Shown: positions 23,501 to 47,500 of the stretch, piece by piece
Numbering within the stretch: the first letter of the stretch is position 1
Layout of the letters: each line of letters opens with the position of its first letter
Source: Botryllus schlosseri
Lineage: Eukaryota
Direction of reading: 5' to 3'
NCBI GenBank assembly: GCA_051294905.1
Contig: CM119372.1
Location: 620,001-684,000, forward strand
DNA: 64,000 bases
Program-made: the position numbers and the translations under genes
The notes under the pieces: generated by a model
Seen by the model: only the letters and a program-made list of their open reading frames with translations
Database searches by the model: none
What the model was told of the DNA's origin: nothing

Positions 23501-26500
23501 GGTCGCCAGACAAAAGAATACCTGATGCAAACTACAGTCGATTATAAAGAAATATATATTAAACCCACACACATACACATAGAGCAACGATTTAGAATAT
23601 AGATGCTAAGAAAATGACGTAATATGGTATTGTGTTTAGAAAATGATGTAGAAAAAACTTAATAGCATATAGCAATCAATCAATATTAATGAATCATACT
23701 TAATTTCAGGAATTGCAAAGTAACCGAATCTCCCCGGAAATTTGCCATAATATTAAATTAGACTGAATATATAATAGATGGATGGAAAAATAATATTAAC
23801 ATTGAGTAGCAAAATTTGTACAGCACCTGTCTGTTCTTTGCGGCTTTTACTCTTTGCGCTTTCAAGGCCACCGGCGCCGATGGACGCCACCCAGAATTGA
23901 AACCATGTTCCCGAAGACAATTCGCGAATCGACATCTGACAAATTTATGACAAACTCAGCTACTGCAACCACATCTTATCCAAATACCGAGTATCGTAGC
24001 ATCATAGTGGCGTTACCAAGCGTATTTTGGGTAAATGAAGTCGTCGTTTTGCTTCATATGTTACGACAATCTCATCACTGTGTAATGTGTAGCGAGTAGT
24101 TCTAGTTCTAGTTGCGACTTTTGAAACGTTAGCAGTTCTAATTCCAGTTTTAGTTGCAACCTTTTCTTCTGATGTTTCCTGCTTCGTAACCGTTTCTTCT
24201 TCGAGGCCTCCATAGTAGACAGCGTACTTGACCGCGCCTGAACATTCAGAAGGTTTTGACTTTATCTCTAATACCAGTCAGCGTTAAAGATTACCTGCAA
24301 CTTTTTCCCATGCGATGATAACAGTGGAGTTTGTGACTTTGCTCACGACAGGTTGAGACGGCACCTCGGTCTCTGAAAATGAAAAAAAGCTATTCCTTCC
24401 AGCACACAAGTGTGAAATCAGACACGAACTTGTGCTCTTTACGACGGCTTGAGCATTTTCGCTGGTCCGGTCCGAGGTCACTGCGGCCACGGTGAAAGAG
24501 TAAACGGTCCCGGGCTTCAGAGATGACATGGTGGCTTCCGTCCCGTTGAACATTTTTACGTCAGGAGTCGAGCTTTCGTGACCAAAGGTTACCCGGTATG
24601 ACGAAGCCCCTGATTAACGAGAGATCGCATCAAAGATGGTGGACGGTGGTGTAGTGTCACATCACATCTTTTTTACATAAGTTGACTCGAGTCATGATTT
24701 GACTTGAGTCAACTTTTCATATGAGTTGACTCGAGTCAACCTTTCCACATGTCACGAGTCACTTTTCATATGACTTGACTTGGCTTGAGTCAACTTTTCC
24801 ACATTAGTTGACTCGAGTCATGATTTGACTTGAGCCAACGTTTTATACGCCTTGACTCGGGTCAAATATTTCCAAATGACTTGACTCGAGTCAACTTTTT
24901 TGTATCTTGACTTGACTCGAGTCATGATTTGACTTCATTCAATTTTTCATATGACTAGACTTGAGTCAACTTTTGTACATGAATTGACTCGAGTCAACTA
25001 TTTCATGACTTGACTTGAATCACTTTGAAAAAATGATGGGAACTGATTCGATGTTTTAAAAATGCAGATCGAGTCGTGACTCAAATTTCTTCGAGTCAAT
25101 TTTTCCTTCACACAAGCACATCTGTCTCGAAAGCCGAGAAGCAACTCACCTGTTACGGCGTCCCATGTCAAACTAACGGATGAAGTTGTCTCTTCCAGAG
25201 ATCTCAAGTTTTTCGGAGCGGCGGGAACAGTTTGAATTCGGATGATTTCACTTTTTTCTTTGTTTATTTGATCTTCGACCCCGACCGACAATAAATAAAA
25301 CTCAAACCAACGACCCGGAGCCAGATCGCTGAACGTGACTTCGGTTTGGGTCGAATTTTTCACGACCGATTCTTCTTTGCCATCCTCCTTCATGACGACA
25401 GAGTAGAAAACCGACCCTGTAATGGTAGACACAGTTCTCTGAACCAGATTTGGACAATTATAATGAAATATTCAGCTTTTCCAAATCAGATCAGAATTAC
25501 ATTAATTGAATTCACTAAATCCTGAAAATCTAATTCAATTGCAAATCAGAAAGAAATACAATCGGGTACACCGAGCTTGCCTCGTTTCATAGGATAACGT
25601 TCTTCTATAGCATGTTCATAAAGCCCTGAAATGAGACCAGAATGGAGCATGGAAACATTTCACGAATCAGGATGAGAATTAGAATTATAACTAAACATTT
25701 TTTTTACAAATCGGACTAAAATTTGAGTGATAGCTACAGATTTTTTCCAAATTTGATTAGAATCAGAATTACTGAATTCTGTGAATCAGAGAGAAATACA
25801 ACAATATCAAATTCAGTTCACATCGAAACAGAGATGATTCTCATAGATAAGAGAATGGCAAATGTCTGTACAGCAAGCTTGGCTGGTTTCCAACGGTACC
25901 GTTCTCCTGTAGCGTTTTCATGAAACCCAGAAAATGGATTTGAATTACATTGAGAGCATGAAAGAATTTCACAAATTAGATTAGAATTAGATTACAGGCA
26001 GACAACTAGACACCTAAAACTATCTATCACCTTGAACAGGCCGCCAAGCCAGCTGTACGCTGCTGTTTGTGACAGACACGAGTTGAGGGGCCCCCGGGGT
26101 CTCCGGCACAGTTGCGACCACGATAGGCTCGGAGAATCGCGACTCGATGAAATTTGAACCGACGCTTGCGACTCTGACCCTGTGTCGACTGCCGGCGTTC
26201 AGTCGGTTGACTTTGTAACTCGTTCGGAAAGACATGAATTTGCGAGGCTTAGCTTTGGTGTCATCGACGTACTCCAGTTCCACAGAATAATACAATGCTC
26301 CTGCAAAGGTGACAATTCCATTATTCGATTGAATAATACATTCATATTGAAATTAACGCGAATAGCTTCGGCCGACACTTTTCAGAGGTGATCATCAGCA
26401 ACAAGTACAGAAATCAAAAGAAGATTGTACGTCAAAAATCATTTCATCAAATACGATGTCACGGCATGTAGTTCTGAATAATCAAGGCGAATAGATTGCT

Positions 26501-29500
26501 ATTAAAAACTCAATGTACTATTTTTATATGATGCACAAACTCGTGTGTATTTCAATATGAATATATCATTCAATTGTCACAGAGGGCTGTGCTGTGGCCA
26601 TGGTTATGAACAAGGATATTATATTTGATGATCATGAGCTGGCATTGTTGTCTTTTCTGCACCGCACTTCCGTATTTCCATGGTTTTGCACAAAAGGTAC
26701 GCATTTCAATTGTCTTATTATAAGTCACGTCACAATGCCCAGCCCTAACTATGGCACCCCCATGTGAGTTGGGTTAAGTCTATTGTTAACAAAATTCATC
26801 GATTGAAACCAGAAGACTGCGATGCAAAGAAAAGATAGGAAGGTGTCGAAACGACTTGGAGTTGTCTTTGAAATTTGACACCCGTATGGGCCTAGGCAAT
26901 GCAAAAGAGAAGCGTGTACACTAGATGGAAAGTAAGAGATGACGATAACATAAAAGGACAACGACAAAATGGGGGGGCATATCAGACGGTGAGGTTAATG
27001 TATGATATCGTGGTTCGGTAATCTAGAGCGCTGACTAGTGTTCGTTCAGTAGATGCTACTTGCATTTCGACTTGAAAGTATATCTGTATATGCACTTTAT
27101 AACTACATACCTTTCATCTTCTCCCAAGCTACGGTAATCTGGTCCGTCGTGACACCTTCCTTCCATACCCTGTTTGGTGGCGACGTGAGAGTCTGCTCTC
27201 TCGTTTTTCGGCTTTCGTAAAAATTGACGCGACCGTTGACGCCAACCGACATCACCGTGAATTCGTATCGCGTTCCGGCGTCCAAACCGTCAATTTCAAC
27301 GCGAGTTCCGTTGCTCGGCACTTGCTTTTCGAAATCAGTTGAACGTGCGACCGCGATGTAGCTTAGAGCACCTGACATGGTAATGCAGCGAAGATTAGAC
27401 ACGGTAATGAGAGTAGAATGATATATTGATACTGAAATAAATCCTAACATTCACGACTGACACTCGTCAGGGGTAATCGTCAGCAACTAGCAGAGAATTG
27501 GAAAGAACTTTGTACATCAACAACCGTACCACCAAATATGACGTACCCAGCATGAAAATATGAATCATCGAGGAAAACACAGCTTAAGCAAAATGTACAA
27601 AGAATATTTCGAATAATTTCATATATAGTACGTTTGTTGATATACAAAATTCTTTTGAATTCTCTTCAAGTTGCTGACGATTACCCCTGACGAGTGTCAC
27701 CAACAATATTCGGGTTTGTTTCAATATGAATATACTATTTAATTGTAATTGAAATTGTTTGTTGCATGATAAAATTCTTTTTATGTATTTGGATTCGGCT
27801 AGGGAGTCAGAGAACTATAGCCTCATCCACCTCAAGGGGTAGACAATTATTTTCCCATACGCGTCAAATGAAAAAAAACATAGGTTGTCGGGCCGGGCCA
27901 TCACTTCAAATTAGGCCTATATTCCGTGGCGTAATTCATTTCAAACTATAAAAAAGTGAGTAAAACTGTTACCACAAGCTGCTGAGAGGATGTGTTAAAA
28001 TTGGGCAATGAGAAAGTGCAGTTTAATTTACAAAAAATAATATTTACTCATTCAGTGTCATTATTCAAAACAATGCAAAACATGAAACATTCTTCACTCA
28101 TTTCAATCACATTCACCCCCTGACGCCCAGAGCCCTTTTTTCTGTTAAGATACGAAATGTATTTGGGATAGTACAAAGCTGGTCTTCGAGCGGTGTGTAG
28201 CTTGGCATTTAGCCTTGTTGTTTTGAGAGCTTCAGTGGCAGATTCTCTGAAATCTGCGCTTTCTCGGTCTCAGCCGACGAGTCTGTATTTCACTGCGTTT
28301 TTCTCATAAATATATTCCTCAACACGGTACCGGTACTCAGTCTATGTTTTTAGTTCACGCATTAGTATTCAAAGGTAGACTTTGTTTTATAAACTCCAGG
28401 CTACCTTTCGTGGGCCGGTCAGAATAGCGTTGGGGGCCGCACTTTGCCCAAGTCTGACCTACTATTTCACTGCTAAACTGGGGAATATTGATCTGCATGT
28501 ATTTCCTGATGCTTACAGGTGTCCAGATACAGCCTTTGTAGTTTATTCCATGTCTAAACATAACAATGACTGTAATGCTGTTTGAAAATTTGTGTAAAGC
28601 AAGATGCTATATCTTTTTTATGTCAGCGTTATCAGTTATGCATAGACTCAAAAATCCGATATCGGTCAGGCTCTAGAAATTAGAATCCGCACAAGAGCTG
28701 TCACCTTTTGCCAAACTCCACGAGAGCGTGACATTCGTCGATCCGACCAGCAAAACGAGTGGCGCTTTTGGGGTTGCCGGCACTGAAATGGAAAATTGTT
28801 GACCAACAGATTACAAAATTTGCAATGTTTGCAGACTGTTTCTCACAAGTCCCGTCGATCAGAACACCCGGGTCGCTTTTGCTCCCGCTTTGGCCGACAG
28901 AGAAAATGCTAAATTCGTAGAGCAGTCCGGCGGTCAGGTTCGAAATGATTTTATTGGTGGGAATGCCGGCGGTCACTTCGCCTTCGACCAATCCCGCGCC
29001 CTCTTTGATCGACCGATAACGGATTATGTACGATATGGCTCCTGCGAAATTTAAACGTACAAATGAAACAGCTGGTTTGCGGTTCATAACTTGAAGATTG
29101 CCTTCATTACAACATCCATTGCTACAATACATTTAATATGACTCAACTCTTTTGGGATGACTCATATAAAGTTTTATCGCAGGGGTTCCTAAACTGGGGT
29201 GCGCGAAATAGTTTTTTTGAAATATGTCATCAGGAGACTACAAAACCAGATTATCCTTTTAGAATAATGTCGTCAGTTGGACGGTGACTACCTGGCACGG
29301 AATAGCATAAATAAAGTGTAGCTTGATGTAAGGAACTTTTTTAGTCAACAGGTGTCTATTTGAACATCAAATAGCCCAAAGCGCAGACTTGATTTTTGAT
29401 TGATTTTTGAAATTTTGGAAGCGCACGCAAACATCCACAACGGGGTCCGCGATCAATAAGGTTTAAGAACCCCTGTGCTAGAGGCAGGCCTTTGGAACCG

Positions 29501-32500: not shown

Positions 32501-35500
32501 TGGTGACCATCGTTTCTGTAGACAACCCAACACTTTCATGGGGTGAACAGAACATTTTCAGTTTTTTTGTTATTTATTTTTAGATAACCAAATTAGGTGT
32601 GGAGGCTTAAATTAGGTAACCTAACAATTTTATCAAGTAGCCAGTGCGATTTGAGAAAAAAAGTCATTTTTGAAGAGCCCTAGTGTACAGTTCTCCTGTA
32701 GCATTTTCATGAAAAGCAAAATTCAGATTCGGATGTAAATGAGAACAAAAAAGATTTGAATAGAATTGGATCAACGGCATTTCCTCTATCAAGTCTAATT
32801 ATACAACTAGCAATATGTAACTGTCTGGGTCCAGTTTCAAAGAAAATTCAGACAACTCACCAGTTAACCCTCGAGCAGGGTCACTAAGCTCCACGTTCAT
32901 CCGACCTCCGCTACCCACCGACCGAATCCTGAACGTGTGCCAAACTCCAGGCTTGAGATCTTCGAATTTGTAGGCAGTATCGCTGGTTCTGAGTTGTTTC
33001 GGACCGGATTCTCCGTCCGCTTGCAACTCCAACATGTATTGTATGGCTCCCTGCACGCTGTCCCACTCGAACGTGAGGGTGGAATTTGTTTTGTCCACGA
33101 GACGAGGTCGGCCGGGCACGTCCGGCACTTGGCGGAAAAATCAATTTCAGTTTGCAGCAAACGACGCTGGCAAAATTTTTAGGCTCCAAACTTTCTGACC
33201 GAATCTCATCAGGAGTGAAGTAGCAAAATTGAAATTATAGACAGAATATTGTCGTTGTGATGCATGGCGATGTTGACATATATTATATCATGTCGTATAT
33301 ATTGGTATGTGCATGAATGTTGTTCAAAAACAACTTTTTTTCATATTTACGGGATTCACTGATTACATTGCCTACGCTACACAGCAAATTTTGCTCAATT
33401 CCAACTTATGAAAGCCGATGGAGAGCCAATTGAAATTTCGAATATTTTTTGGAAACATAGTATTTACAGTGGCAAATTTCGTAACTTCGACATGACCAAA
33501 AATGCGTTACAAGCATGCCTGAAGGGAGAGTGATGCTTTTTCTGTGTGTTTACATCTTGAAAAGGGCCTGTGATAGTGTTTGGGTAAAGATATCACCAAT
33601 TAACGAAAAATAATTCTGACACTGATTAGCTGAAAACTAGTCAGCTCCATTGAAATAGCATTGTTACAACAATAATTCTTTTCAACGCTTTCAGGTGGCG
33701 ACTAACTCTGAAGGCCCCTAGCCGCGTCCTAGTCTATATTGTCATTTGTAATGTAGGCCTACCTTATTTTCCTTGTTTCTTGGTGTGATGAGTAAAAACC
33801 TATCTATCTATTCATGTTATGATGGAAACTACTCACGAACGGCATATAACACAGCGCAGTTCCGGTATAACAGAAATAAAGTGGGCAAAATTTGCTAAAA
33901 ACGTGGGTCAGTCAAAAAGCTTGGTAAATTTGCCAATATTGTTTCTATAATGAAGTTTTGAACCTCAAGAAGCCAATTTCAATTTTGAATTGCAAATACA
34001 TCGATTCTCATCAACTCACACGTTATCACCATCTGTGGGTCACTCTCCCTGCTTTGCACGCCATCTTCTCCTACGGCAGCCACAGTGATTAGGTACGTGA
34101 TGCCCGTTTCAAGTCCGTCAATTTCCGCCACTTGTTGGCTCACTCGCTCTGTCTTGAGAAGTTCTTCGGTGTTTGCGTCACGGAATCTCAGCAAATACCA
34201 CTTGGCGCCTGGTGAAAAGAAGGCATTCGATTTGCCAACAACGTGTCGAGATTAGATTTTCGAGCCAATAGTGATAAAACTGAAAACTAGCACCTTCACT
34301 GATAACCCCAATATATTCAGCCGGTATGCAAAAGATATGGTGTCTAGCTTAAGACGCATTTTTAAAACTTCAGAGGGCTTTTTTCGAGGTACAGAACTTC
34401 AATATACAATTGAGTAGTATATTCATATTGAAATGAACCCGAATATTTTCGGCTGACACTCGTCAGGGGTAATCGTCAGCAACTAGTAGAGAATTGGAAA
34501 GAACATTGTAGATCAACAATCGTATCTCGAAATATGACGTCAAGAGCTTGAAATGAGATCAAATGAGAGCAAGGCTGTAATGACTCGAGTCATGACTCGG
34601 CTCGAGTCAGACTCGAGTCACGATTTTTTGACGACTCGACTCGAGTCATTTTCTTAAAATACGGAAATGACTCGACTCGACTCGAGTCAATCTGTGTATT
34701 GACTCGATTTGGACTCGATACATTGCGCATGACTCGAATCAAGTCATATGACTCGAGACTCAGACGACCAAGACCTACATATAATTGTAATTTCGAAGAA
34801 TAGTAAAGTAACCACACAATTGGGATTCCGTCTATCTTATAAGCTACCGGTACTTGAAAATGCGACTAGAAACAGCTAAAAGTGAAGGAAATGAGTATAT
34901 TATAAATGCAAACCATTCGATATCACCAGAGTTATAAAAAGTGGGTTTAACAAGACGTTAACTGGAAACTGAGCAATCAACACAATGACTTTGACTCGGA
35001 CTCGAGTCATAATGCCATGACTCGGACTCGAACCTCTGCTTGCTGACTTGGACTAGGACTTGACTCGGTGGTGAATTGAAAATGACTCGACTTGACTCGA
35101 GTCAAAACTATAAAATTGAAATTGACTTGTGACTCGGAGCCTTGTGACTTGGTTACAACCCTGGTTCTCACATAATTCCCTCTCAACATGCAAACGCCCG
35201 TCTCCACACCATTTCAGATCAAATTGAAAATTTTCACATCGATCAGGCATTACATTTGGTGCATAACAAACTTTGTTTCAAGAAAATCGGACAATTCGTT
35301 ACAGAGTTATTGCAATTTGAAAAATGAAATTTTGTGCTCACTCGGTCGTGACGCTATACCGCTTGGAACCTGTGTCTATTTGTAATTAACATTATAGTGA
35401 TCAAATTGCTGCCGGGCAGACTTAAATTTTTGTAGTAAGATATTTTGGTATATGCTTATTGTGATAGACCTAAATTTTTAACTTTACTAATGGGGGTTAG

Positions 35501-38500
35501 GGGTCAAATGTCAATTCAAAGTCATCATGTTTTCAAAATCAGCCATGCGTAACAAATATGCAACTCTGCCTAGTGTTATTCTATTTAAACCGATTTTTTC
35601 GAGGAAGGTGTCAAATGGAAGCTTGGAAAGAGTAGAACGTTGCTGAATTGGTATTGCATGTGATATTTGACTGCCACTTGTCTAAAACTTCATTGAAAAG
35701 ATGCGCTCTAATTAGTGCATGACCTGTTCTGCATAAAGTGTCAAAGTATATTTTTAAGCGTGTTCCTGTCTTATATTCAATTCATAACCAATTCTGATGG
35801 ATTCTAATTGGTAACAGCTTTCATATGACACTTTACTTATGAATTTTGAGTTAGATAGAGTCGTGCCACAGAGTTCAGAAATATCGTCACGCATCACTGA
35901 TTTTAACATACTGGTATGTCTATTTTCAAATCAAGATTTGAACCTTGATTTTGTAATGCGGAGGGGAATTCCTAGTGAGTGAAGAACATGTACCACCAAT
36001 CATTGCTTACCAGCATTACTACCTGCAGCCTGTATAAGTAATGATCTTAGCAGTTATAATTGTACGCAAATTTCATGGTTGAGTAAGCACGAAGTCCTCA
36101 TTCTTCATACTGCAATTGCTCAAGAACCGATCAATAAAGTTATATTAATTAAATTATATTCTACTCAGAATTGGGTACTTTAGTAGTACATGATATTGCA
36201 GAGAAATCTGAGAGGGTGTGAAGACGAATTGAAATATTATTTGGATGTTGACTCAATTTACTGATAGGCGGTAAACCCAGAAGCACCCTTGCAAGTATAA
36301 TGCACGTGCAATAAATAAAAGTACTCTGAGCATGACAATAATTATCTACTGAAACACATTATCATATAAGGAGTAGAATAATGGCAAAATCAGATAATCA
36401 CTGAATTAATATAATTTAAATTAATTACAAAATGACCTATTTTGCATTATGCACCATATTATATTTTTAACCATGTTGCTGTCAAATATCAATAACAAAA
36501 CTAAGTTTCGTGCATTCTAGTTGGAAACAGCTTTCAAATGACACCTTGCTTGTGAATTTTGGTTTAAATAGAATTGCACCAGATGAGTTAAAAAATATCG
36601 TTATGCATCACCGATTTTAACATATGCCAATTTTGAAATCGCGTTTTGAACCTTGACCCAATACTGTGGAGCGGGGAAATTCGTGCTAAGTGAAGAACAT
36701 GTACCAACAATTATTGCTAAATAACATTCAAACCTTTACTCTACGTAACCTCTGAGCTTTATCAGTTACAATCATACACAGGTTTTGTGTTGCCAAATTT
36801 CATGGTTGAGTAATCACAAAATCATCATTTTTCAAACTGCAATAACTCGAGAGCCGTTCAACGAAATTGTCCGAAATAAATTTCGTTGTACTCAGAACTA
36901 GATACTTTAGTTGTATATAAATTTAGAGAAAAATCTGAGAGGGTGTGGAGACGGATTTAAAAAATATTTGCATGTTGACAGGGAATTACTCTGTAGTGAA
37001 ATAGGTATAGCTGAAAAACTACTGAACAGTCTTTAATTAATGAGATGTAGAATTGTCATTATAATATCGCTTCGAAATTGTCAATTATTCAATTTACCTC
37101 TCACTCGATTCCATTGCAGGGTAACCGAGTTTTGAGTGATGCTCTGCACACGCAAACCACCGATTTTTTGAGGCACCGTCTGCACTTTCAAAGTAGCCGG
37201 GTTTTCTGAGTCGTACTCCGAATTCTGTCCTAGTGAATAAACGTTGAATATGTACACGGTCCCAACTCCGAGGGCTTGAGCGCTGAAGAAAGTCGCTGAC
37301 ACAGTTCTTTTTATCCAATCCGGAGAGTTTATAGCCTTGAATTGTACGAGATATGATTCAACGCCGACTCTAGCGTCCCAAGTGACGTTGATAGAACGAG
37401 TTGTTCTAGAAACCAGTTCCAAACGGCTTGGGTTGGTCGGCGCGATTCTGGCAGTCACCGATGATCGTTCCTTGCTTTCTGTACCAGCGATTGTTTTTGA
37501 TGACGCGTCAAACCGATACAGTTTTCCTGACAACAACGGCTTGACAATGAACGAGGTTCCGTTGATTTCATCAACTCGAACTAGAAGATCAACTCCAGTA
37601 GATGTCTCGATGTCGTAGGTTCTCACAGAATACGTTGCAGCCCCTGAACAGACGAACAGACAGTTATTTCCAAAATAAGAAAAAAAGAATTCAAATAAAT
37701 ATGATACGGTCATATATAGCAGACCTACAACGTTATGAACATAAATATGTGTTGTAAAAAGTTTAAAGAAGAAATATGTATAGCAATATATTTGAATTTG
37801 ATATGCATATTAGGCAGGTACTTGAAAAGCGAATTTTGGAAATATGTTGGTCTGGCTCTGATGAAATGTTCCTTTTGGGTAAAAGACATAAAAAACCTAG
37901 TTTAAAATATTGAATTGCTATTCATTAATGTTTAGAAGTGGCTCAATGGATGCGAATTTCTACCCATAATTCGTCTAAAAGTGAACAGAATTGTCAAATT
38001 TAAGCAGGATGGACCATATATGATTTGGTGTATTTACTGTACTGATGTACACCAAACAAATGTCCATAAAAAGTTAAAAATGCTTTAAAAAAGAAGACAT
38101 TCCACAGTAATATTTTCATGGACTGTTTTATAATGATATCTGAAGTCCTTAGACTCTGTGCGAGGCATGTTTTTCAATTCGGTTGAAAGTCCTTCTGTTG
38201 ACACAAACTAGGTCGGCATATTTTGATTAAGTCCACTCTCCAAGGCATACAAATGAAAGTGTGAACGGCATCTTCCGACGACACAATCTCGATCATTCTT
38301 CACACAAACAGAATTATCCGACAAATGCTTGCCAACGGCAAAGTTCATGGCTCTTGCCTGTTCTGATTCGAGCTTCAGGGGATGAGTTAAGGGCGACCGC
38401 ATCATGCACGTCTTCTAATAGATCTAGTGACATGTTGATTTACGAGTGTCAGCTGAAAATATTCGGCTTTATTTCACTATGAATGTTTTATTGAATTCTA

Positions 38501-41500
38501 TAGCGAAGTTCTGTACATCGAAGAAGCTCTTCACATGTTTATCCATGGATCCCGAGCTTCTCACCTTTTACCGATTCCCACTCGAGTTTGGCCGACCGGT
38601 CCGTCACGTAGCCGAGAGAAATCTGCGGAGCGTCGGGTATCGTGTGTACGATCAGACGATTGTCGCTCTCACTTCTCTCTCCCCTGTGAAGGACGGCAAG
38701 TTCCAACACGTAGCTCCTGCCTGGGGAGAGTTCTACTGCTCGATAGCTGTTGCCAGATACACTTGTAGATATGACAACCTGCACAATTCACATGCGAAAT
38801 ATGTCATAAGGGCACAGTTAAGATTTTTGTCGCGTGTTACTACTAGGGTTGTACAAAATCAAGTACGAGTGATACAATTCTGAATCGCGTATCACATTTC
38901 GAGTCAAGTATTCCAGTATGGCTCATTACTCATTTTAGGCGTCCAGTTCTACACATCTTCAAGACTATTTGGTAATTTTTAGCAGACCTATTTCATTGCA
39001 CTTTGTGCAAATGCAGTGGGTCGGTCGTGACATCAAAGATATGTCATTTCCATTAACGTGCGTAGCTTTGAACTACATGTTTCATATGCTGTGGTACGAC
39101 CAATCGTGGTTTACAGCCTTCAATAGTGGAAAATGGTCTCGAAACTACAATTCCGGCTGATAAATCAAGAAGCGTATCATTTCATTACTCGAACCATTAC
39201 ATTTAATACACTTCAGGTTTGGGTACTCACCTCATTGGTGTCTAGTCTCTTCACCGTGATGTAATAAAATACGCCTCGTAAATCAGAGGAAGCCCAACTG
39301 ACGGTGAATGAGGTTTTTGTGACTGACAATGGATCGAGAACCATCTTTGGCACCTCAATTCCTGCACAAAAAGTATCGTTGAATGTTGATAAACGTGGAA
39401 TTTTGCGAGAATTTACCGGTAGAGAGAAAAGACACAGCCCGCGGCCCTCGTTTCCCATCGCCGTCAATGGCCCAGGCGTCGAGCGAGTACCGAGTTCCTT
39501 GCTCCAAGTCGCCGAAAGTGACTGATGTTTGATTGGATGCGGCCGTTTTCGACTGAAAAGCCTCTTTTCCACCGGAAAGTCGAATCTGCCCAAGACAACA
39601 AAGTGTATAGTAGGGCTCTTCAAAAATGACTTCTTTACTCAAGTCACACTGGCTACTTGATAAAATTGTTAGGTTACCTAATTTAAGCCTACACACCAAA
39701 TTTGGTTCAATTCCAACCAGTAGCCGCATTGCTACAGGAGAACAAAGTTTCTACTTATTATATAAAAATAAATAACAAAAAATTTGAAAATTTTCTGTTC
39801 ACCCCATGAAATTGTTAGGTTGTATATAGAAACGATGTTCACCAAATTTGGGTGAATTCCAACCAGTGGAAGCGGAGTTATCGCCGTCGAAAAATTTGGA
39901 TTATCAATAAATAGTATTTACGGTGACCAATTCCTTAATTATTTATTATAGTGGTGCCCACCGTAAATACTATTTTATTCAAATCCAAATTTTTCGACAA
40001 AAATAACTTCGCTTGTACTGGTTGGAACTCAACCAAATTTGGTGAACATTGTTTCTATAGACAACCTAACACTTTCATAGGGTGAACAGAAAATTTTCAA
40101 ATTTTTGGTTATTTATTTTTATATAATAAATAGAAACTTTCTTCTCCTGTAGCAATGCGGCTACTGGTTGGAATTGAACCAAATTTGGTGTGTAGGCTTA
40201 AATTAGGTAACCTAACAATTTTATCAAGTAGCCAGTGCGATTTGAGAAAAAAAGTCATTTTTGAAGAGCCCTAGTGTATAGGCTCCTCAAGCTTAAAGAC
40301 AAGGGTTGGGCAAAATCCAGTAATCGAGAGATTACATTGTGAACCAAGTATTAATCATCCGAGTCGAGTATTCAAGTATCATTCATTATGATGTCATACA
40401 GATGTGACTGATGTGGAATGTTCAAAAATGTACTTTTTATAAGATTGCCAAGAAAATAATTCCATTTCTATGCCCAATAAAATTAATTTGGTACTTTAAC
40501 AACATCGGACTTTCTGATCACAAAATCCCAGAAATGTCATTTGCACTAACGTGCGTGGTACTGTGGCGTACTGCTTATTTCATACGCTGTAATACAAACT
40601 ATCGTTGGAAAATATTATCAAAATGATAATTAATAAAAATATTTATTAAATTAACTCAAAATGTAAAGGAGCGTATAATTTCAGTACTCGAAGAATTTCT
40701 CTCTCACTACTCGAAGCGAATTATTACAATTAATGCTCAATTCAGATACAAGTATTCGAATACTGTGTCCAATCCTAACGAAAAGTGAATCATTTCTTCG
40801 AACCTGAATGAAATATTCCGATGCAAAAGGTTGCGAGGTCCACACGACCTGTATAGAACGGTCCGTGATGCGTCCGCGCTCCAGCTGCATTTGCGAGATT
40901 GCTGAACATAAATATTGTATGAACGGTACAATCTCACAATATGACTGACATGATACCTCCAGGGTTGCAATGACTCGAGACCGACTCGAGATGCCATTTT
41001 TGAAAATGACTCGACTAGAGTTGAGTCGTTTTTCTATATTCCTATGATTATATCAAATCATATGACTCACGAAAAATAGGACTTGTCTATTACCTATTTC
41101 AATAAACATATTAGGAGTAGATGTGGTCAAAGTACTCAGTGTTGGTCCTCAAGTAAAAGCAACAATTTGCATCTAAGCAAAAAGTACGTATTCTAGGTGT
41201 AGTTTTACCTAAAATACTGTAAGGTAAAAGTAGTAGTTTAAAATCAAAACCCCTTGAGGAAGTAGTACAAGTAGGCAAAACGTACTTGAGTACTTTGATA
41301 AAGTAGAAGTACTTCCTTACTGACCGTCTTTGGATAAGAGTGAGGCAGATGGGCATACTATGAATGCGTGGAATTCGTTTCACCTCAGCAGAGTTGTGAA
41401 AATGAGTTGAACATGGCTTAGACTGAACAGTAATACACAGTACCGTAGTCCGTATGCCTTTACGACTTCTGACTTGGACTCGGACTCGAGTCTCAACACT

Positions 41501-44500
41501 ACGACTCTGGCTTGAGTCGGTGGTGAATTGAAAATGACTCGACTTGACTCGCTTCAAAACTGAGTAAGATTGACTTGTGACTCGGAATCTATGTGACTTG
41601 GTTTCAAGACTGGTTTCACGATTGGCACTTACGTGGTTTGCAAATTGTTTCCGCGATCCATTCTTCAAATCTGACCAGATCGATGAAGGTCTGTAATACG
41701 CGAACGTGCCCCTGAGTTGGTTCTGATGCAATCTTTGACAATTCAAAGTAATTCGGTCCTGGAATACAACAACCATAGCAGAGTTGGCCAACTAGAATAT
41801 TTGCAGCTTTTCCAAATTAGATTAGAAATAGAACCCAGAGTGGAATTGGTGGAAACGTCACGGATAACTTTCGGCACTTCTTCGTTATTCCCCACACATC
41901 GAAAAAATGATCCCCATGACACCAATAAATGTTTCCCATGAACATTACCAGAAAAATTTATAAACGTCAAAATGAATTGTTCATCGCGTTGGGGTGGGAT
42001 AGACGGATATTAGGAATGGGGGAGGGGGATATTAGGATGGGTTAGGGTTAGGATATCCTAATATTAGGGTTGGGGATATTAGGGTCGGGAGATATTAGGG
42101 TGGGTTAGGATTAGGTTTGGGGATATCAGGGATGGGGAGGGGGATATTGGGGTGGCTTAGGATATCCTAAGATTAGGGTCGGGAGATATTAGGGTGGGTT
42201 AGGATATTCTAAGATTAGGGTTGGGGATATTGGGGAGGAGGATATTAGGGTGGGTTAGGGTCAAGGTTGGGATATCCTAAGACTAGGGATGGGGGAGGAG
42301 ATATTAGGGTTAGGATATCATAAGATAAGGGTTGGGGATATTAGGGTCAAGGATGGGGTTAGGATATCCTAAGATTAGGGTTGGAGGTGAAGATTACAAC
42401 ATTCCAAACCCTAATCTTGGGATACCTTGACCCCAAATTTAACCCTAATCTCGGGATATCCTACCTCAACCTTGACCCTAACCTACCCTACCACCCTCAC
42501 CCGCAACCCCAATCTTAGGATATCCTAACCACCCAAATAGCCCCTTCCGCAACCCTAATCTTAGGATATTCTAACTCACCCTAATACCGCCTTCCCCAAC
42601 CCTAATATCTCCAACCCCGACCCCAATATTCCCTTCCCAGGACCCTTATATCTCCCACCCCGACCCTAATACTCCCCTAGTCATAATCCCCAATTTATTT
42701 TGACGTGTATAAATTTTCACATGTTCATGGGAATCATTTATTGGTTTCATGGTGATCACTTCTGGATGTGTGAGGAATAACAAAGAAGTGCCGAACTTTC
42801 TGTTTAATTACCTAATTATTCTATGCAGAAAAGCTCTCATCACTCAGAATTTATTTCAAAAGATGAACCGACATTCCATAGGGCAGTGGTTCTCAACCTT
42901 TTTGGCTTCGCGGACCCCTTTTGACCGTCACGGACCCTCGCGGACCCCCTCAAGTTTCAGTTCAATTTTAGCTCTATTATGGTGCAACCTTCATCTGTCT
43001 TCTGCAAATATGAACTGTAGGCTTGTGATAAACAGCAAAATAATGATTTTTCTTGAAGATAACATCATACTATTTATGTAGAAATTGGTGGACAGTTAAT
43101 ATTTCAAAGCTAATTTTGCTGCTGTATTTCTTGAAGTACGTGGTCGTGTCTTGAAAGTCCGCGTCTTCGTTTTGATATGAACGAGGAGTGCCGACAACCA
43201 TTTCCGCAAAGATAGATGGAAGCTAATGCAATATTAACGCATAACGCTTCCGACGATACTTTTGGTGTGATCGCAACATTGATGGCACCAAAATGAAGAA
43301 ACACATATTTTATGCACGTATCACGTCCAGCATCTAGCGCAGGGACGGGCAGGGCAACATACGGACCGCGGGCCGCATTCGGCCCGCAGAGAGTTCCTAT
43401 CGTCAAAGTGAAATCCTAATCTAAAAGTATATAGACAAATTTTATGCTCCAAAGAATGGATCCACGTTTTCCAACCAGAGAAAGACTGTCATGAAACTTG
43501 TTTTGTTCGGTTTTACATATATATTTACGAGCATACATTTTCGACCATGAACAATTGAACATTAACAAGACAAGGCTGCATACCAATCTAACTGGTGATA
43601 TGAATTTCAGGGTTGGAGTGTATAATGCTTTGATAGCAACGAAACACTCCTTGTTCATAAAAAAATCAGCTTTGTCGATAGGGCATCAGCAATAAGAATG
43701 CGCCAAATCTGATAGCCGAGCTTTAAGAGCAGGTATATCATTGTCCGATTTATGACGAGTGTCAGCCGAAAATATTCGGGCTCATTTCAATAAGAATATA
43801 CTATTCAATTGTATATTAAAGTTCTGTACCTCCAAGAAGTTGTTCCTTGCATTGGGACAAATTATGGAAATACTTCGGAAATTTTTATTTCAAACGACTG
43901 TTCATTAATTTGATGAGACTGACAACTTCAAATCGAGAAGGTTTTGCATACATAGCGAAGTCACCCTGATTGACGTTATTACTATCTCCATATTTTTATT
44001 TTTTCCACAAACCCCAACAAAAGGTTTAACAGCAATATGTTTGTATCAGCAGGTTATTGGAAAATTGGCAATGAAAATGAGATTCCACACTACGATAGTC
44101 CATGTATAGGACGATTATTATGATGATATGAGTCATGAGGTTTTAGCAGTTGGGGTGCGAAACTGCCTCATGCTTTCTCAAATTAAAAAATAAAATAAAA
44201 ATTCGGTTATCAACCCTTTTAAAAATTTAGAGGTCTCGCGGACCCCCTGAAATTGCTTCGCGGACCCCTGGGGGTCCGCGGACCCCCGGTTGAGAACCGC
44301 TGCCATAGGGGATATAGCTACTAGTAAAGTTCTAGAATTACAATTCCATAACTGAATTCTGGAAAACTTGGAAATTGAATGCAATTCTGATTCAGATGGA
44401 AATCCAACAGAAATCGAGTTCACTTCATATCACATCAGAGTTCATCCTCATAAGCACAAGAATGGCAAATGTCTATACAATGATCTTGGCTCGTTTCGCA

Positions 44501-47500
44501 CTGCACAATTCTCCTGTAGCATTTTCAGGAAAGCCAAAAATCAGATTAAAATTAAAATCACAGCATAGAAACATTTCAAAAATTTGATTAGAATTTCATT
44601 TTCACTCACTATCGATGCCAAACACGATGATCCTGCAATGTTTTCGAAGTTCGGCTGCAGGCTCCGCACTCAAGTCACTGGACACCCCTTCTATTATTAT
44701 AACACAAACCGCGTCCAGCTCGGGACGACGACCTACAACACATCATATTATACATAAATATTATGCATATATTATTGCATATTGAAGTTCTGTACCTCAA
44801 AGAGACTCTTCATAAAAACTCATTCACGATTCGGTGCCCTGTTTATGCCGTTCGTTATTACAAACATAATTGTATTGTATCTATATTTCGAATTTGGTTA
44901 ACCGCATTTACCATCGTTCGCTCCTGACGAGAGTCAGCCAGCTTCCAGTGGACTAAATTTGGCAATATGAACAATTGAACATATTCTTCGACGGTGTAAT
45001 ACTATTATTGAAGTTCTGTACTTTCAAACAACTATTCAATACAGAGATGCCACTGGGATATTTCGGAAAAACCCAGATGTGGAGGCGAAATAAACCCAGA
45101 AAAACCCAGATCCTATATTTCACGCAAAAGGCACGAGATAGCTGTGAAAGTGGAGCCTGATAGCCGTCGAATACACTCATACAGTCATTGAAGCCTTTAA
45201 TATTGAATTTACAACCGTTCAGAATACACATTTTGCTTGGTTAACACTGCGAACCGCACAAAAAACATGTTGTTTTCCTCTCGACACATCGCAATGATAA
45301 AATTGGGGCGCAGCGTGAATAGTTGATAGAGTACCGGTACTAATTATATCATCGCGCTGCGAAAGTTCAATGCAATGCCATTCCCTATTTCTAAGGATGA
45401 TTTCATGTATTTCAGCGACCTGAACAGATTGAAAGTAGCTTTCGATTGATTAATCCTACGACAATCACTTTTATTTGGAATAATCACAGACCAATGTATA
45501 GTGGAAATAAATAACTGCCAAATCATGAAATTCAGGGTTAGGGTAAGGGACTTAGGGTTAGGGTTCGAATGTGCTGATAGTGATAACCAATGCCTCTGAT
45601 TAACTTAATAGTGGTGTCCAGCTAACTGACTCTCTCTCTCTCTCTCTGAGTGTCCCTGTTGGAACTATAAATATAATCAGATAACAATAGGATTATATTA
45701 GTCGGATCATCACCTGGTCTGTTCATGTGCTTGTGCATACCATACAGTTACATGATATTTATCGATACATGCCGAATTGTTCACCAAGTGCCGAGTTCGC
45801 TACTGGCAATCGTCCTATATGAAGATGACTTTCTGCGATCTGGAAGTTACCATTCAATGAAGCTCCATCGCATCAAGCCGAAGACTCTCATTTTAGTAGT
45901 GAAATAGATTCTTAACACTCTGTCGTTACAATAACAGCAAAATCCATCGACAATGGTGAACTGAAGTGCGTGCATTTTACGATATTGCGACCATACTAAT
46001 CTAATATTTAATTTTCGAGCGTAAAACTGACCTGGCGAACTGGATGTTGAAAAAAACCCAGATTTCAAGGATAAAAACCCAGAAACCCAGGTGATGCTCA
46101 AAAAACCCAGATCTGGGTGGAAAAACCCAGGAGTGGCATCTCTGATTCAATATTCATGCGTAAATTTCCATACAGGGGAGATCCCCTGCTGTATTTATGT
46201 CAGAATTATTGAACCACAACACGTCACATCAATTTCGCAGCAAATGACTATAGGTTAATAGTTATCTATAAAATGATCCAGGTTCAGCCCAGTATAGACA
46301 AGATAGAAAAATAATCTTGCCAATATACAACCGCATAGATTGAGGAATAAGATGTCAAAAATAATTTTCTACGGAACAAATCCGAAATTAGTAAATAAAC
46401 GGGAATGGAAACCGAAAATTGAAAGTCTACTGCCGTCAAACCTCCGATCTCGTTCGAAAACTTATCGGCAACATATTTCATCGCCTTTCCGACATTGGTT
46501 GCACGATTGCCTCCGCCCCAAAACTTTGTCCTCGCCAACAGCTTACGCAAAGCAGGAACGCCTGTGGTCTCGTTCAGCATCATAACGTCTTGAACTTCTT
46601 TATTAAATCTAAATATGGAGTTTTTCGATTCCTTGTGACGGCCACTATAACCAATAATGTCAACTCACACAGTGATGGAAAATCTGTTGGATTCCGGACC
46701 CACGTCGATTTGCCGCGCCACGTTCACGATAAAACTGCGAACGTTTTCAAACGATTTCCTGCCCGTGTCGCGGGAGGTTTCCACTATGAAGAAAATGTCG
46801 AGCGGTCCTTCGCGGCACTCTGCGAACAGAATGGAAGGAGTATAGTACTTGCGATCGTGAAATTCAGTTTTCGTGGAAACAGAAATGTGAAAAACTTTTG
46901 GAGATTCACGAAAATATCAAGTTTGATTCGGTGGGGCAGAATTGCAAAGCTAGAAAATATTGAGATAGCTTCCAAATTGTATAAGAAGTATAGTAATATA
47001 GCTACATCTTATTTTCCATATTAGGATTAGAATTAGAATTGCTGATTTCGCGAAAACGTGCCAAGTCAATTAATACCCGAATCGGAAAGAATCATAACCA
47101 GGACTTTGGAGCCGGAGCCCGGAGCCGGAGCCCCGGAGCCGTGCATTTTTACCGGAGCTGGAGATGGAGCCGGAGCTCTACATCAAATTCAGCCGGAGCC
47201 GGAGCTGGAGCTAGTTATTTGAGGGGTAGCTCCGGCTCCGACGTATTTCATAAGATGCTATTATATATGCAACAACCATAGCCTATCTGCTGAGTTCACA
47301 TAATTCAACAGCAGGCCTTCGCGAAATTAAGAGACTTTGGCGCTACATTTTCCGACTAACCATGTTCCTGGGGGTTTAACAGCAGAGCAGTCATATGTTC
47401 AATGCTCAATTTTCATACATGAGTGCCGAACCTCGGTACGTTAGATATGCCTGAGAATATTGTGGGTATTTGGCATACCCGCAACTTCATCCTCAGCACA

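What the first reader, a model, noticed from the sequence alone, without database searches (positions are those of the whole stretch)
34374..34542. High-copy ~175-nt non-coding repeat carrying a minimal hammerhead ribozyme
Seen: about 14 copies in 64 kb (near 2230, 2406, 3595, 14140, 17108, 17216, 22874, 26356, 27441, 27683, 34437, 38442, 43753, 55200) share ACCC-CUGACGA-G-UGUCAGC-C-GAAA-AUAU-UC-GGGU. This has every invariant type I hammerhead nucleotide, a 4-bp stem I, a one-pair stem II and stem III reduced to a palindromic tetraloop. Established: such minimal hammerheads occur in Penelope-like element pseudo-LTRs and related non-autonomous repeats, and cleave as dimers through the palindromic loop III. 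Inference: this is a ribozyme-bearing non-autonomous retroelement family mobilised by a Penelope-like partner. I saw no TIR, consistent TSD, poly(A) tail or ORF.
Basis: partly seen in the sequence, partly recalled or inferred. Interest (0 to 1): 0.92.

Follow-up and report, generated by a model that had tools for sequence, protein, structure and literature searches.

The report
Penelope-like retroelement tail with hammerhead motif
The short repeat is the end piece of a very abundant, protein-coding Penelope-like jumping gene, and it carries a hammerhead-type ribozyme motif of a known kind in which one stem is replaced by a pseudoknot.

Summary
The repeat is real. It is not a separate non-coding family. 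It is the last ~95-435 bp of an autonomous Penelope-like element (PLE). [quoted passage not shown] The copies show the usual PLE traits: 5' truncation, head-to-head pairs, head-to-tail arrays, a 38-nt optional tail and a target-site duplication. The motif lies in the 145-nt spacer between ORF stop and the next ATG, and the predicted cut is 14 nt before that ATG. Relatives at 43-64% protein identity keep the same motif, with covariation in stem I, in the palindromic stem III and in the C3-G8 core pair. Rfam models do not detect the motif. Cleavage is not shown: predicted folding is unfavourable and one RNA run shows no ends at the site. Hammerheads in PLEs are known; only the stem II/pseudoknot form may be new.

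The parts
34374..34569 (-). Focal copy: a 196-bp 5'-truncated terminal piece of the PLE (unit positions 2498-2689, 91% identical to a young copy). It holds the spacer after the ORF stop, the hammerhead motif, the ORF start (first 22 codons) and the tail.
   Evidence: blastn of the 2,692-bp unit against the window and tblastn of the ORF; sequence
34437..34470 (-). Hammerhead-type motif, exact consensus. Stem I is ACCC (34470-34467) with GGGU (34440-34437). Core C3-A9 is 34466-34460. G10.1 is 34459 and C11.1 is 34451. G12-A14 is 34450-34448. The palindrome AAUAUU is 34447-34442. C17 is 34441. The predicted cut lies between 34441 and 34440.
   Evidence: structure supported by covariation in relatives
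34475..34479 (-). 5' strand of the pseudoknot (CUGAC). It pairs with GUCAG at 34453-34457 in loop II.
   Evidence: sequence; covariation CUGAC/GUCAG, CUAGC/GCUAG, CCAGU/GCUGG, CCGAC/GUCGG, GACGC/GCGUC in relatives
34361..34426 (-). Start of the PLE ORF (residues 1-22, ATG at 34426-34424), 14 nt downstream of the predicted cut. The insertion ends inside this stretch.
   Evidence: tblastn; ORF in tandem array L027
22545..22979 (+). Longest window copy (unit 2258-2690, 85% identity). It holds the last ~77 codons of the ORF (with a frameshift), the spacer, the hammerhead motif at 22874-22907 (one change that breaks a stem I pair) and the tail.
2162..2462 (.). Head-to-head pair of two truncated copies: 2162-2319 on the minus strand and 2320-2462 on the plus strand, joined at their 5' ends.
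3556..3676 (-). Truncated copy (unit 2546-2666), short 3' end class, motif decayed.
14080..14206 (+). Truncated copy (unit 2533-2662), short 3' end class, motif decayed.
17092..17271 (.). Head-to-head pair: 17092-17185 on the minus strand and 17184-17271 on the plus strand. It folds as a long hairpin and gives a sub-threshold Rfam MIR8562 match.
26319..26577 (.). Copy on the minus strand (26319-26479, plus 26510-26542) with a short inverted piece (26541-26577, plus strand).
27422..27756 (.). Head-to-head pair: 27422-27565 on the minus strand and 27629-27756 on the plus strand, with 63 bp between them.
38187..38533 (.). Head-to-head junction at 38442. An old ORF-end piece on the minus strand (unit 2191-2464, 69% identity) abuts a 92-bp terminal piece on the plus strand that begins inside the hammerhead core (unit 2601).
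43593..43845 (.). Head-to-head junction at 43752/43753. An ORF fragment on the minus strand (unit 590-747, residues 216-269) abuts a 93-bp terminal piece on the plus strand (unit 2599-2691).
44768..44812 (+). 45-bp fragment holding only the extreme 3' end with the tail (unit 2648-2692).
55189..55286 (-). Old copy (70% identity, unit 2527-2638).

Best explanation
The repeat is the 3'-terminal (pseudo-LTR) segment of an autonomous, recently active Penelope-like retrotransposon. Most copies, and all of those in the window, are 5'-truncated products of target-primed reverse transcription, often joined head to head. In head-to-tail arrays the segment links one unit to the next. It holds the 145-nt spacer after the ORF stop, a type I hammerhead-type motif, and then the ATG and first 18 codons of the next ORF. 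The motif has a full catalytic core, a 4-6-bp stem I and a stem II cut down to the G10.1-C11.1 pair. The 7-nt loop of stem II forms a 5-bp pseudoknot with the 5' flank of stem I. Stem III exists only as a 6-nt palindrome, so two copies must pair to build it. Inferred, not shown: on multimeric transcripts two motifs dimerise and cut after C17, giving unit-length RNA that starts 14 nt before the AUG. Uncut or re-joined RNA is what gets reverse-transcribed, because every insertion runs across the cut site.
For: PLE identity: the sequence upstream of the repeat is conserved among 18 genomic copies. It encodes ...VYEYRCHCDCGYVGRT...RINQH. The full ORF is 848 aa, with Pfam RVT_1 at E 7.8e-9 and GIY-YIG at E 0.028 for the own protein. 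GIY-YIG reaches E<=0.01 in 3 of 11 aligned relatives. A profile of the alignment hits RTs in the PDB, including telomerase RT at E 0.0075. The tandem array L027 has hammerhead boxes at 1625, 4317, 7009 and 9702, a period of 2,692/2,693 bp, and ORFs that start 14 nt after each box. In a protein search of the genome, 134 of 134 scored hits are 95-100% identical, out of 8,942 first-look candidates. Head-to-head arms are seen. The 3' ends fall in two classes, 14 long and 18 short among 32 terminal HSPs, and an array ends 38 nt short of the long end. One young copy has a 10-bp TSD. Motif: 22 sequences from own-genome copies and metagenome relatives show 85.0% of cells paired, against 26-42% when partners are slid. 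The covariation score is 0.349 against <=0.098 slid, and 0 of 500 shuffles reach it. The pseudoknot is 93.6% paired, with changes on both sides at 4 of 5 pairs. The C3-G8 pair is paired in 22 of 22 (CG 10, UG 7, UA 5) and G10.1-C11.1 in 22 of 22. The invariant columns are core nucleotides U4 G5 A6 A9 G10.1 G12 A13 A14 A15.1. One-base-pair stem II with a pseudoknot gives fast cleavage in another hammerhead (PMC3088659, passages read).
Against: No cleavage was shown. ViennaRNA puts the own-genome monomer in two competing hairpins at -11.3 kcal/mol. One of them pairs the core CUGAC with the same GUCAG that the pseudoknot needs. The hammerhead stems alone score +0.1 kcal/mol and the AAUAUU duplex only -0.2 kcal/mol. 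Rfam's hammerhead models give no hit even at E<=10. Raw RNA reads of one single-cell run (about 3% of it read) show no place where molecules begin or end, and almost no coverage of the ORF. None of 35 sampled genomic copies begins at the cut site, and the one BLAST start at unit 2627 turned out on inspection to extend further. Many relatives carry U3.G8, a wobble expected to weaken catalysis. For the anole PLE, ribozyme mutants did not affect insertion in vitro and no RNA ends were found at the site (PMC11167929, passages read). The pseudoknot test by shuffling gives only p 0.03-0.08 per lineage. Alignment A4 was anchored by me on the pseudoknot strand.
Confidence: 0.8

Rival explanations
1. 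The short copies are in effect a non-autonomous family. A short RNA starts at a promoter inside the terminal segment, contains the reverse-transcription start site, and is copied in trans by the PLE protein. This would give ~130-200-bp insertions.
For: 20 of 35 sampled copies begin within unit 2476-2569, only 6 further upstream and 9 further downstream. Summed contig depth rises about 50-fold over the last ~200 bp (the tool warns this is not a copy number). RNA reads lie almost only on this segment. PLE promoters lie in the pLTR (PMC6765202, passages read). A 2026 preprint derives animal retrozymes from PLE pLTRs (10.64898/2026.07.22.740005, abstract read).
Against: The 5' ends are spread over at least 70 nt with no shared terminus. 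The copies match the end of the autonomous element and extend into the ORF in many cases. No short head-to-tail tandems are seen; all adjacent pairs in the window are inverted. 67% of the laid RNA reads run on into unrelated sequence, as expected for read-through of dispersed stubs.
Confidence: 0.15
2. The motif is a conserved RNA structure derived from a hammerhead. It now serves mainly as a binding or positioning site for the element's protein, or as a 5'-UTR/promoter element, with little or no self-cleavage in vivo.
For: The predicted active fold is unfavourable and there is a competing hairpin. U3.G8 is common in relatives. No RNA ends were seen at the site. For the anole PLE, cleavage needed protein and was dispensable for insertion in vitro (PMC11167929, passages read). 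PLE hammerheads have low activity in vitro (PMC4209133, whole text read).
Against: The invariant positions are exactly the catalytic nucleotides. The 3-8 pair covaries CG/UG/UA. That pattern is hard to explain except by selection on the catalytic fold.
Confidence: 0.25
3. The resemblance to a hammerhead is a chance match in an AT-rich repeat.
For: No Rfam hit. The motif is short and stem II is a single pair.
Against: The same architecture occurs at the same place in relatives with 43-64% protein identity, with compensatory changes in four structural elements. The location matches published PLE hammerheads (PMC4209133).
Confidence: 0.01

Closest known systems
Minimal hammerheads of metazoan Penelope-like elements (Cervera and De la Pena 2014, PMC4209133; Lunse, Weinberg and Breaker 2017, not held, recalled only)
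   Same: Type I hammerhead in the pseudo-LTR. Stem III is reduced to a palindrome, which implies dimers. Stem I is short (4-6 bp). G10.1-C11.1 is conserved. U3-A8 and U3.G8 core variants occur. Thousands of mostly solitary copies from truncated elements, with pairs on opposite strands 100-700 bp apart.
   Different: The published consensus is CUGANGA-H-GNNNNN...NNNNNC, with an extra nucleotide after A9 and a hairpin stem II. All 56 representatives in their Fig. S3 have a stem II hairpin of at least 3 bp. Here there is no extra nucleotide. The whole stem II segment is 9 nt (one closing pair), and its loop pairs with the 5' flank of stem I.
Poseidon PLE of Anolis carolinensis, PAc (PMC11167929, passages read)
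   Same: Tandem units. The hammerhead lies at the pLTR-ORF junction. Reverse transcription starts at two internal sites, which gives an optional 30-40-bp tail. Uncut RNA is the template.
   Different: In PAc the cut site lies 26 nt inside the ORF. Here it lies 14 nt upstream of the ATG, so cutting would leave the ORF whole.
[quoted passage not shown] 2011, PMC3088659, passages read)
   Same: A helix of about 5 bp ties loop II to the stem I side. Stem II can be one or two pairs and still support fast cleavage.
   Different: Those are monomeric ribozymes with a normal stem III, mostly from bacteria, phages or vertebrate introns. Here the pseudoknot is combined with the dimer-type palindromic stem III of a PLE.
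Non-LTR retrozymes (PMC7229834 and 10.64898/2026.07.22.740005, abstracts read)
   Same: Hammerhead-bearing repeats without coding capacity, related to PLE pLTRs.
   Different: Retrozymes are short head-to-tail tandem monomers with canonical hammerheads that give circular RNAs. The copies here are dispersed or inverted stubs of a coding element.

Membership tests
Penelope-like element, canonical C-terminal EN+ type | Single ORF with a reverse transcriptase of the PLE/telomerase-related kind | tested here: met
   848-aa ORF. Pfam RVT_1 E 7.8e-9, above cut-off. Profile hits PDB RTs including telomerase RT, E 0.0075. The DKG motif (PDKGSG) is visible in the translation.
Penelope-like element, canonical C-terminal EN+ type | C-terminal GIY-YIG nuclease with two cysteines between GIY and YIG | tested here: met
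   VYEYRCHCDCGYVGRT...R...H lies at the C-terminus. The Pfam GIY-YIG hit is below cut-off for the own protein (E 0.028, 15.2 bits against 22.6). It is found at E<=0.01 in 3 of 11 aligned relatives, best 1.4e-4. No CX2-5CxxC linker was seen by eye, which would fit the Penelope/Poseidon clade. No phylogeny was made.
Penelope-like element, canonical C-terminal EN+ type | Partial tandems (pseudo-LTRs), inverted 5'-truncated partner copies and strong 5' truncation | tested here: met
   Tandem array with period 2,692/2,693 bp. Head-to-head arms 54-642 and 1098-1686 in L021. Head-to-head pairs or junctions at 2319/2320, 17184/85, 26541/42, 27565-27629, 38442 and 43752/53 in the window.
Penelope-like element, canonical C-terminal EN+ type | Optional 30-40-bp tail at the insertion end | tested here: met
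   The array ends at unit ~2654, whereas the long class ends at 2692, a difference of 38 nt. 14 long and 18 short ends among 32 terminal HSPs.
Penelope-like element, canonical C-terminal EN+ type | Target-site duplication of variable length | tested here: inconclusive
   A 10-bp TSD (GATATCGGTA) flanks the 99%-identical copy L123:4729-4945. None is obvious at L120:1016-1200. Only 2 copies were examined.
Hammerhead ribozyme, type I | Conserved core C3 U4 G5 A6 N7 G8 A9 / G12 A13 A14 / A15.1-U16.1 / H17 | tested here: met
   Exact in 34437-34470. Invariant columns in 22 sequences. The 3-8 pair covaries.
Hammerhead ribozyme, type I | Three helices around the core | tested here: inconclusive
   Stem I is supported by covariation. 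Stem II is only G10.1-C11.1 (22/22), and the next pair forms in 14/22. Stem III exists only between two molecules, as a palindrome. One-pair stem II has a published precedent (PMC3088659).
Hammerhead ribozyme, type I | Match to curated Rfam hammerhead models | tested here: not met
   No hammerhead family at gathering score or at E<=10 in the window. This is expected for motifs without stem III.
Hammerhead ribozyme, type I | Site-specific self-cleavage | not testable with these tools
   One RNA run shows no ends at the site, which settles nothing.
PLE min-HHR consensus of Cervera and De la Pena 2014 | Extra nucleotide between A9 and G10.1, and a hairpin stem II of several base pairs | tested here: not met
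   G10.1 follows A9 directly and the segment is 9 nt in all 22 sequences. Their Fig. S3 rows all have hairpin stems.
PLE min-HHR consensus of Cervera and De la Pena 2014 | G10.1-C11.1 conserved, palindromic stem III, location in the pLTR | tested here: met
Non-autonomous hammerhead repeat (retrozyme or SINE-like) | Own defined ends, no coding parent of the same sequence, short head-to-tail tandems | tested here: not met
   Ragged 5' ends. Collinear with the coding element. Adjacent copies are inverted, not tandem.

The most novel reading that the evidence does not exclude
This PLE lineage and its relatives in other hosts carry a hammerhead sub-architecture not described for PLEs. Stem II is replaced by one closing pair, and its loop is pseudoknotted to the 5' flank of stem I. 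This is combined with an obligately intermolecular stem III. In the own-genome version the same loop can instead pair with the core (CUGAC), which would act as an on/off switch. The cut site sits 14 nt before the AUG. Cleavage of tandem transcripts would therefore release unit-length RNA whose ends are held together by stem I and can be circularised with a whole ORF.
Probability: 0.3. Interest if true: 0.55.

Novelty: new variant of a known kind. Interest (0 to 1): 0.35.

Why it matters
Hammerheads in Penelope-like elements have been known since 2014, so the finding itself is expected biology. Three things add some value. First, the element is unusually abundant and young: 3,093 identical motifs, open 848-aa frames and tandem arrays. 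That makes it a good natural system for the open question of what PLE hammerheads do. Second, the motif escapes Rfam and differs from the published PLE consensus, yet it is backed by covariation, including the catalytic 3-8 pair. This points to a class of PLE hammerheads that descriptor searches may miss. Third, the cut site lies just ahead of the start codon, unlike in the one PLE studied biochemically. Cleavage and translation of the product can therefore be tested together.

Tried and rejected
Rfam cmscan of the window at gathering score and at E<=10 found no hammerhead. The best hit, MIR8562, is the inverted repeat pair at 17127-17230.

I considered a MITE or foldback element because of the inverted pairs. 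I rejected it because the arms are 5'-truncated PLE ends of unequal length that contain ORF sequence.

I considered the upstream CUGACGA as the true catalytic box with a long stem II. I rejected it because the required pairs are absent in the own-genome sequence, and other lineages have CCGAC, CUAGC, CCAGU or GACGC there.

My first control for the pseudoknot was badly designed, because the 'other' class contained decayed members of the same family. I replaced it.

RNA evidence: no RNA holder was listed by the look-up of sequencing runs. One raw single-cell RNA run (X24, about 3% of it read) was laid with three contig runs, and no starts or ends were reported at the site.

Genomic footprint of cleavage: I looked for copies that begin at the cut site among 35 copies in the window plus 200 kb of arbitrarily placed genome, and found none. 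The sample is small.

Lunse et al. 2017 (PMC5785218) is not held, so I cannot say whether their roughly 150,000 variants (a number recalled, not seen) include this form.

The search of earlier findings returned nothing for this genome. No structure prediction or complex prediction was run. No clade phylogeny of the RT was made.
Full report
**Observation**

blastn of the region against the window finds copies at all 14 places listed, plus two small extra pieces. None of 100 shuffles of the window gave a match.

The window is part of a 495.5-Mb, 219-contig eukaryotic assembly. The 34-nt motif occurs there 1,568 + 1,525 times exactly, against 0 + 0 for the reversed control.

In the window only 4 copies keep the motif within 3 mismatches, and only the focal one is exact. 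The others are 70-92% identical, decayed copies.

**What the repeat is**

I aligned 18 of the genomic copies most similar to window 22778-22978, with flanks.

That upstream sequence is coding. It translates to a C-terminus with ...VYEYRCHCDCGYVGRTSRRLQDRINQH..., a GIY-YIG-type motif with two cysteines between GIY and YIG.

A protein search of the genome gave 8,942 first-look candidates. All 134 scored hits were 95-100% identical, and several have 860-aa open frames.

Locus L027 holds a head-to-tail array. The hammerhead boxes lie at 1625, 4317, 7009 and 9702, a period of 2,692/2,693 bp, and there are 848-aa ORFs between them.

- The ORF has Pfam RVT_1 (E 7.8e-9).
- GIY-YIG is below cut-off in the own protein (E 0.028). 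It reaches E<=0.01 in 3 of 11 aligned relatives.
- A profile of the alignment hits RTs in the PDB, including telomerase RT.
- The PDKGSG (DKG) motif is visible, and I saw no CX2-5CxxC linker. By the criteria in PMC8557442 (passages read) this fits a Penelope/Poseidon-type element, but I made no tree.

**Anatomy of the terminal segment**

- The ORF stop is followed by a 145-nt spacer.
- The hammerhead core starts 105 nt after the stop.
- The predicted cut after ...AAUAUUC is 14 nt before the next ATG.
- The usual insertion end lies 55 nt into that ORF.

The ORF start therefore sits in the upstream partial copy, so only tandem or partial-tandem arrangements encode the whole protein. This is the published pseudo-LTR logic of PLEs (PMC4209133, PMC6765202).

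**Other PLE hallmarks**

- Head-to-head pairs of 5'-truncated copies: L021 arms 54-642 and 1098-1686, and six such pairs or junctions in the window.
- Two classes of 3' end: 14 long (unit 2681-2692) and 18 short (2638-2677) among 32 terminal HSPs. One array ends exactly 38 nt before the long end. This matches the 30-40-bp tail explained by two internal RT start sites in the anole element (PMC11167929, PMC8557442, passages read).
- A 10-bp TSD around a 99%-identical solo copy. A second copy showed none.

**The window copies**

They map to unit positions 2258-2692 and are 94-435 bp long. Copy 22545-22979 still has the last ~77 codons, and 43593-43752 is a stray ORF fragment.

**Is the hammerhead real?**

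Rfam finds no hammerhead at any threshold used. This is expected without stem III. I therefore looked at relatives.

The ORF has 843 homologues at E<=0.001, at most 64% identical to it among the 120 best listed. A metagenome scan returned 80 loci. In loci that reach the ORF end or start, the same motif recurs at the same place.

- Stem I changes with compensation: ACCC/GGGU, UUUCCC/GGGAAA, CAUACU/AGUAUG, CCCA/UGGG, UACUU/AAGUA.
- The stem III palindrome changes but stays palindromic: AAUAUU, AAGCUU, AACGUU, AAAAGCUUUU.
- The core 3-8 pair runs through C-G, U.G and U-A.
- The stem II segment is always 9 nt, G N [5 nt] A/C C.
- Those 5 nt are complementary to a block a few nucleotides upstream of stem I: CUGAC/GUCAG, CUAGC/GCUAG, CCAGU/GCUGG, CCGAC/GUCGG, GACGC/GCGUC.

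A perfect Watson-Crick 5-mer is present in 4 of 5 distinct lineage types, and the fifth has one G.U. It is present in 0 of 20 cross-combinations of distinct types.

Shuffling each upstream window gives p 0.03-0.08 per lineage, so each case alone is weak.

On a 22-sequence alignment (A4) the whole structure has 85.0% of cells paired, against 26-42% when partners are slid. The covariation score is 0.349 against <=0.098 slid, and 0 of 500 shuffles reach it. The pseudoknot is 93.6% paired with double changes at 4 of 5 pairs. The 3-8 pair is paired in 22 of 22, and G10.1-C11.1 in 22 of 22.

Caveats:
- I chose the sequence starts so that the pseudoknot strands aligned.
- MAFFT put gaps inside stem I for some rows, which lowers the stem I counts.
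- Three rows are decayed own-genome copies.
- No rows were dropped.

**Comparison with what is known**

Cervera and De la Pena (PMC4209133; whole text and supplement file 2 read, supplement file 1 not readable) describe PLE min-HHRs. Theirs have an extra nucleotide after A9, a hairpin stem II (all 56 rows of their Fig. S3 have at least 3 bp), G10.1-C11.1, a palindromic stem III and U3-A8 variants.

The present motif shares the last three features and the location, but not the first two.

Perreault et al. (PMC3088659, passages read) showed that about 40% of hammerheads use a pseudoknot between the stem I and stem II sides. They also showed that a one-pair stem II with a pseudoknot cleaves fast. 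The parts are therefore known; their combination in a dimer-type PLE hammerhead is what may be new.

I could not read Lunse et al. 2017. My searches of the held library found no description of this form.

**Does it cut?**

This is not shown, and the evidence is mixed.

For cutting: the invariant columns are the catalytic nucleotides, and the 3-8 pair covaries.

Against cutting:
- The own-genome monomer is predicted to fold into two hairpins (-11.3 kcal/mol), one of which uses the core CUGAC and the loop GUCAG.
- The hammerhead stems alone score +0.1 kcal/mol and the AAUAUU duplex -0.2 kcal/mol. The AAGCUU of relatives gives -4.3 kcal/mol and appears in their predicted homodimer.
- Raw reads of one single-cell RNA run lie on both strands of the terminal ~200 bp. 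67% of them run into unrelated sequence, the ORF is almost uncovered, and no preferred starts or ends were reported.
- None of 35 sampled copies begins at the cut site.

Every insertion longer than 69 bp crosses the cut site. The reverse-transcribed template was therefore uncut there, or had been re-joined. This agrees with the anole study, in which uncut RNA was the substrate and cleavage needed the protein (PMC11167929).

It survives only in a weak form. 20 of 35 copies begin within unit 2476-2569, which is more peaked than simple decay with length. But the ends are ragged, and the sequence is that of the coding element.

**Verdict**

This is a real, very abundant PLE terminal segment with a covariation-supported hammerhead-type motif. 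It is known biology with a possibly undescribed stem II/pseudoknot form. Catalysis is untested.

Noticed in passing
window 38442 and 43753; L114:9122; L116:4221: Four terminal pieces begin at unit 2599-2605, inside the hammerhead core/loop II hairpin. Each is joined head to head to another inverted PLE piece. This may be a hot spot for template switching or RT stalling at the structured motif. The sample is 4 of 35 copies.
   Followed up: partly
window 17127-17230: Rfam MIR8562 match (50.4 bits against a gathering score of 211, E 4.6e-6). It is simply the long hairpin formed by a head-to-head pair of PLE stubs. Such pairs are common genome-wide (for example motif pairs 72-349 bp apart) and could yield hairpin RNAs.
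   Followed up: partly
window 34570-34760; also 18354-18379, 24683-24711, 35080-35105, 61808-61833; flanks of PLE stubs in L121: A different repeat rich in the palindrome GACTCGAGTC lies directly next to the 5' end of the focal copy and next to two stubs in L121. It gives weak miRNA-like Rfam hits (mir-3931, mir-929). It may be another mobile element or a preferred target.
   Followed up: no
window 42336-42527: A cluster of weak, overlapping miRNA-like Rfam hits on both strands (MIR2118, MIR7994, MIR1888) over an inverted repeat with GGGTTAGG/CCTAATC-like units. It is unrelated to the PLE.
   Followed up: no
L027:3843-4842: RNA reads of run X24 cover both strands of the terminal ~200 bp at depths of hundreds but the ORF at 0-17. 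Two thirds of the reads continue into unrelated sequence. This suggests that most signal comes from stubs embedded in other transcripts.
   Followed up: partly
proteins P0001-P0036: Many full-length homologues sit on contigs of 2.6-3.0 kb, about one unit length. These may be transcripts or assemblies of tandem or circular forms.
   Followed up: no
L087, L088, L099, L102: Other loci with PLE RT matches carry the classical PLE hammerhead form (an extra nucleotide after A9 and a 5-8-bp hairpin stem II). Both forms therefore occur among related elements in the same metagenome sets. Whether these motifs belong to the matched ORFs was not checked.
   Followed up: no
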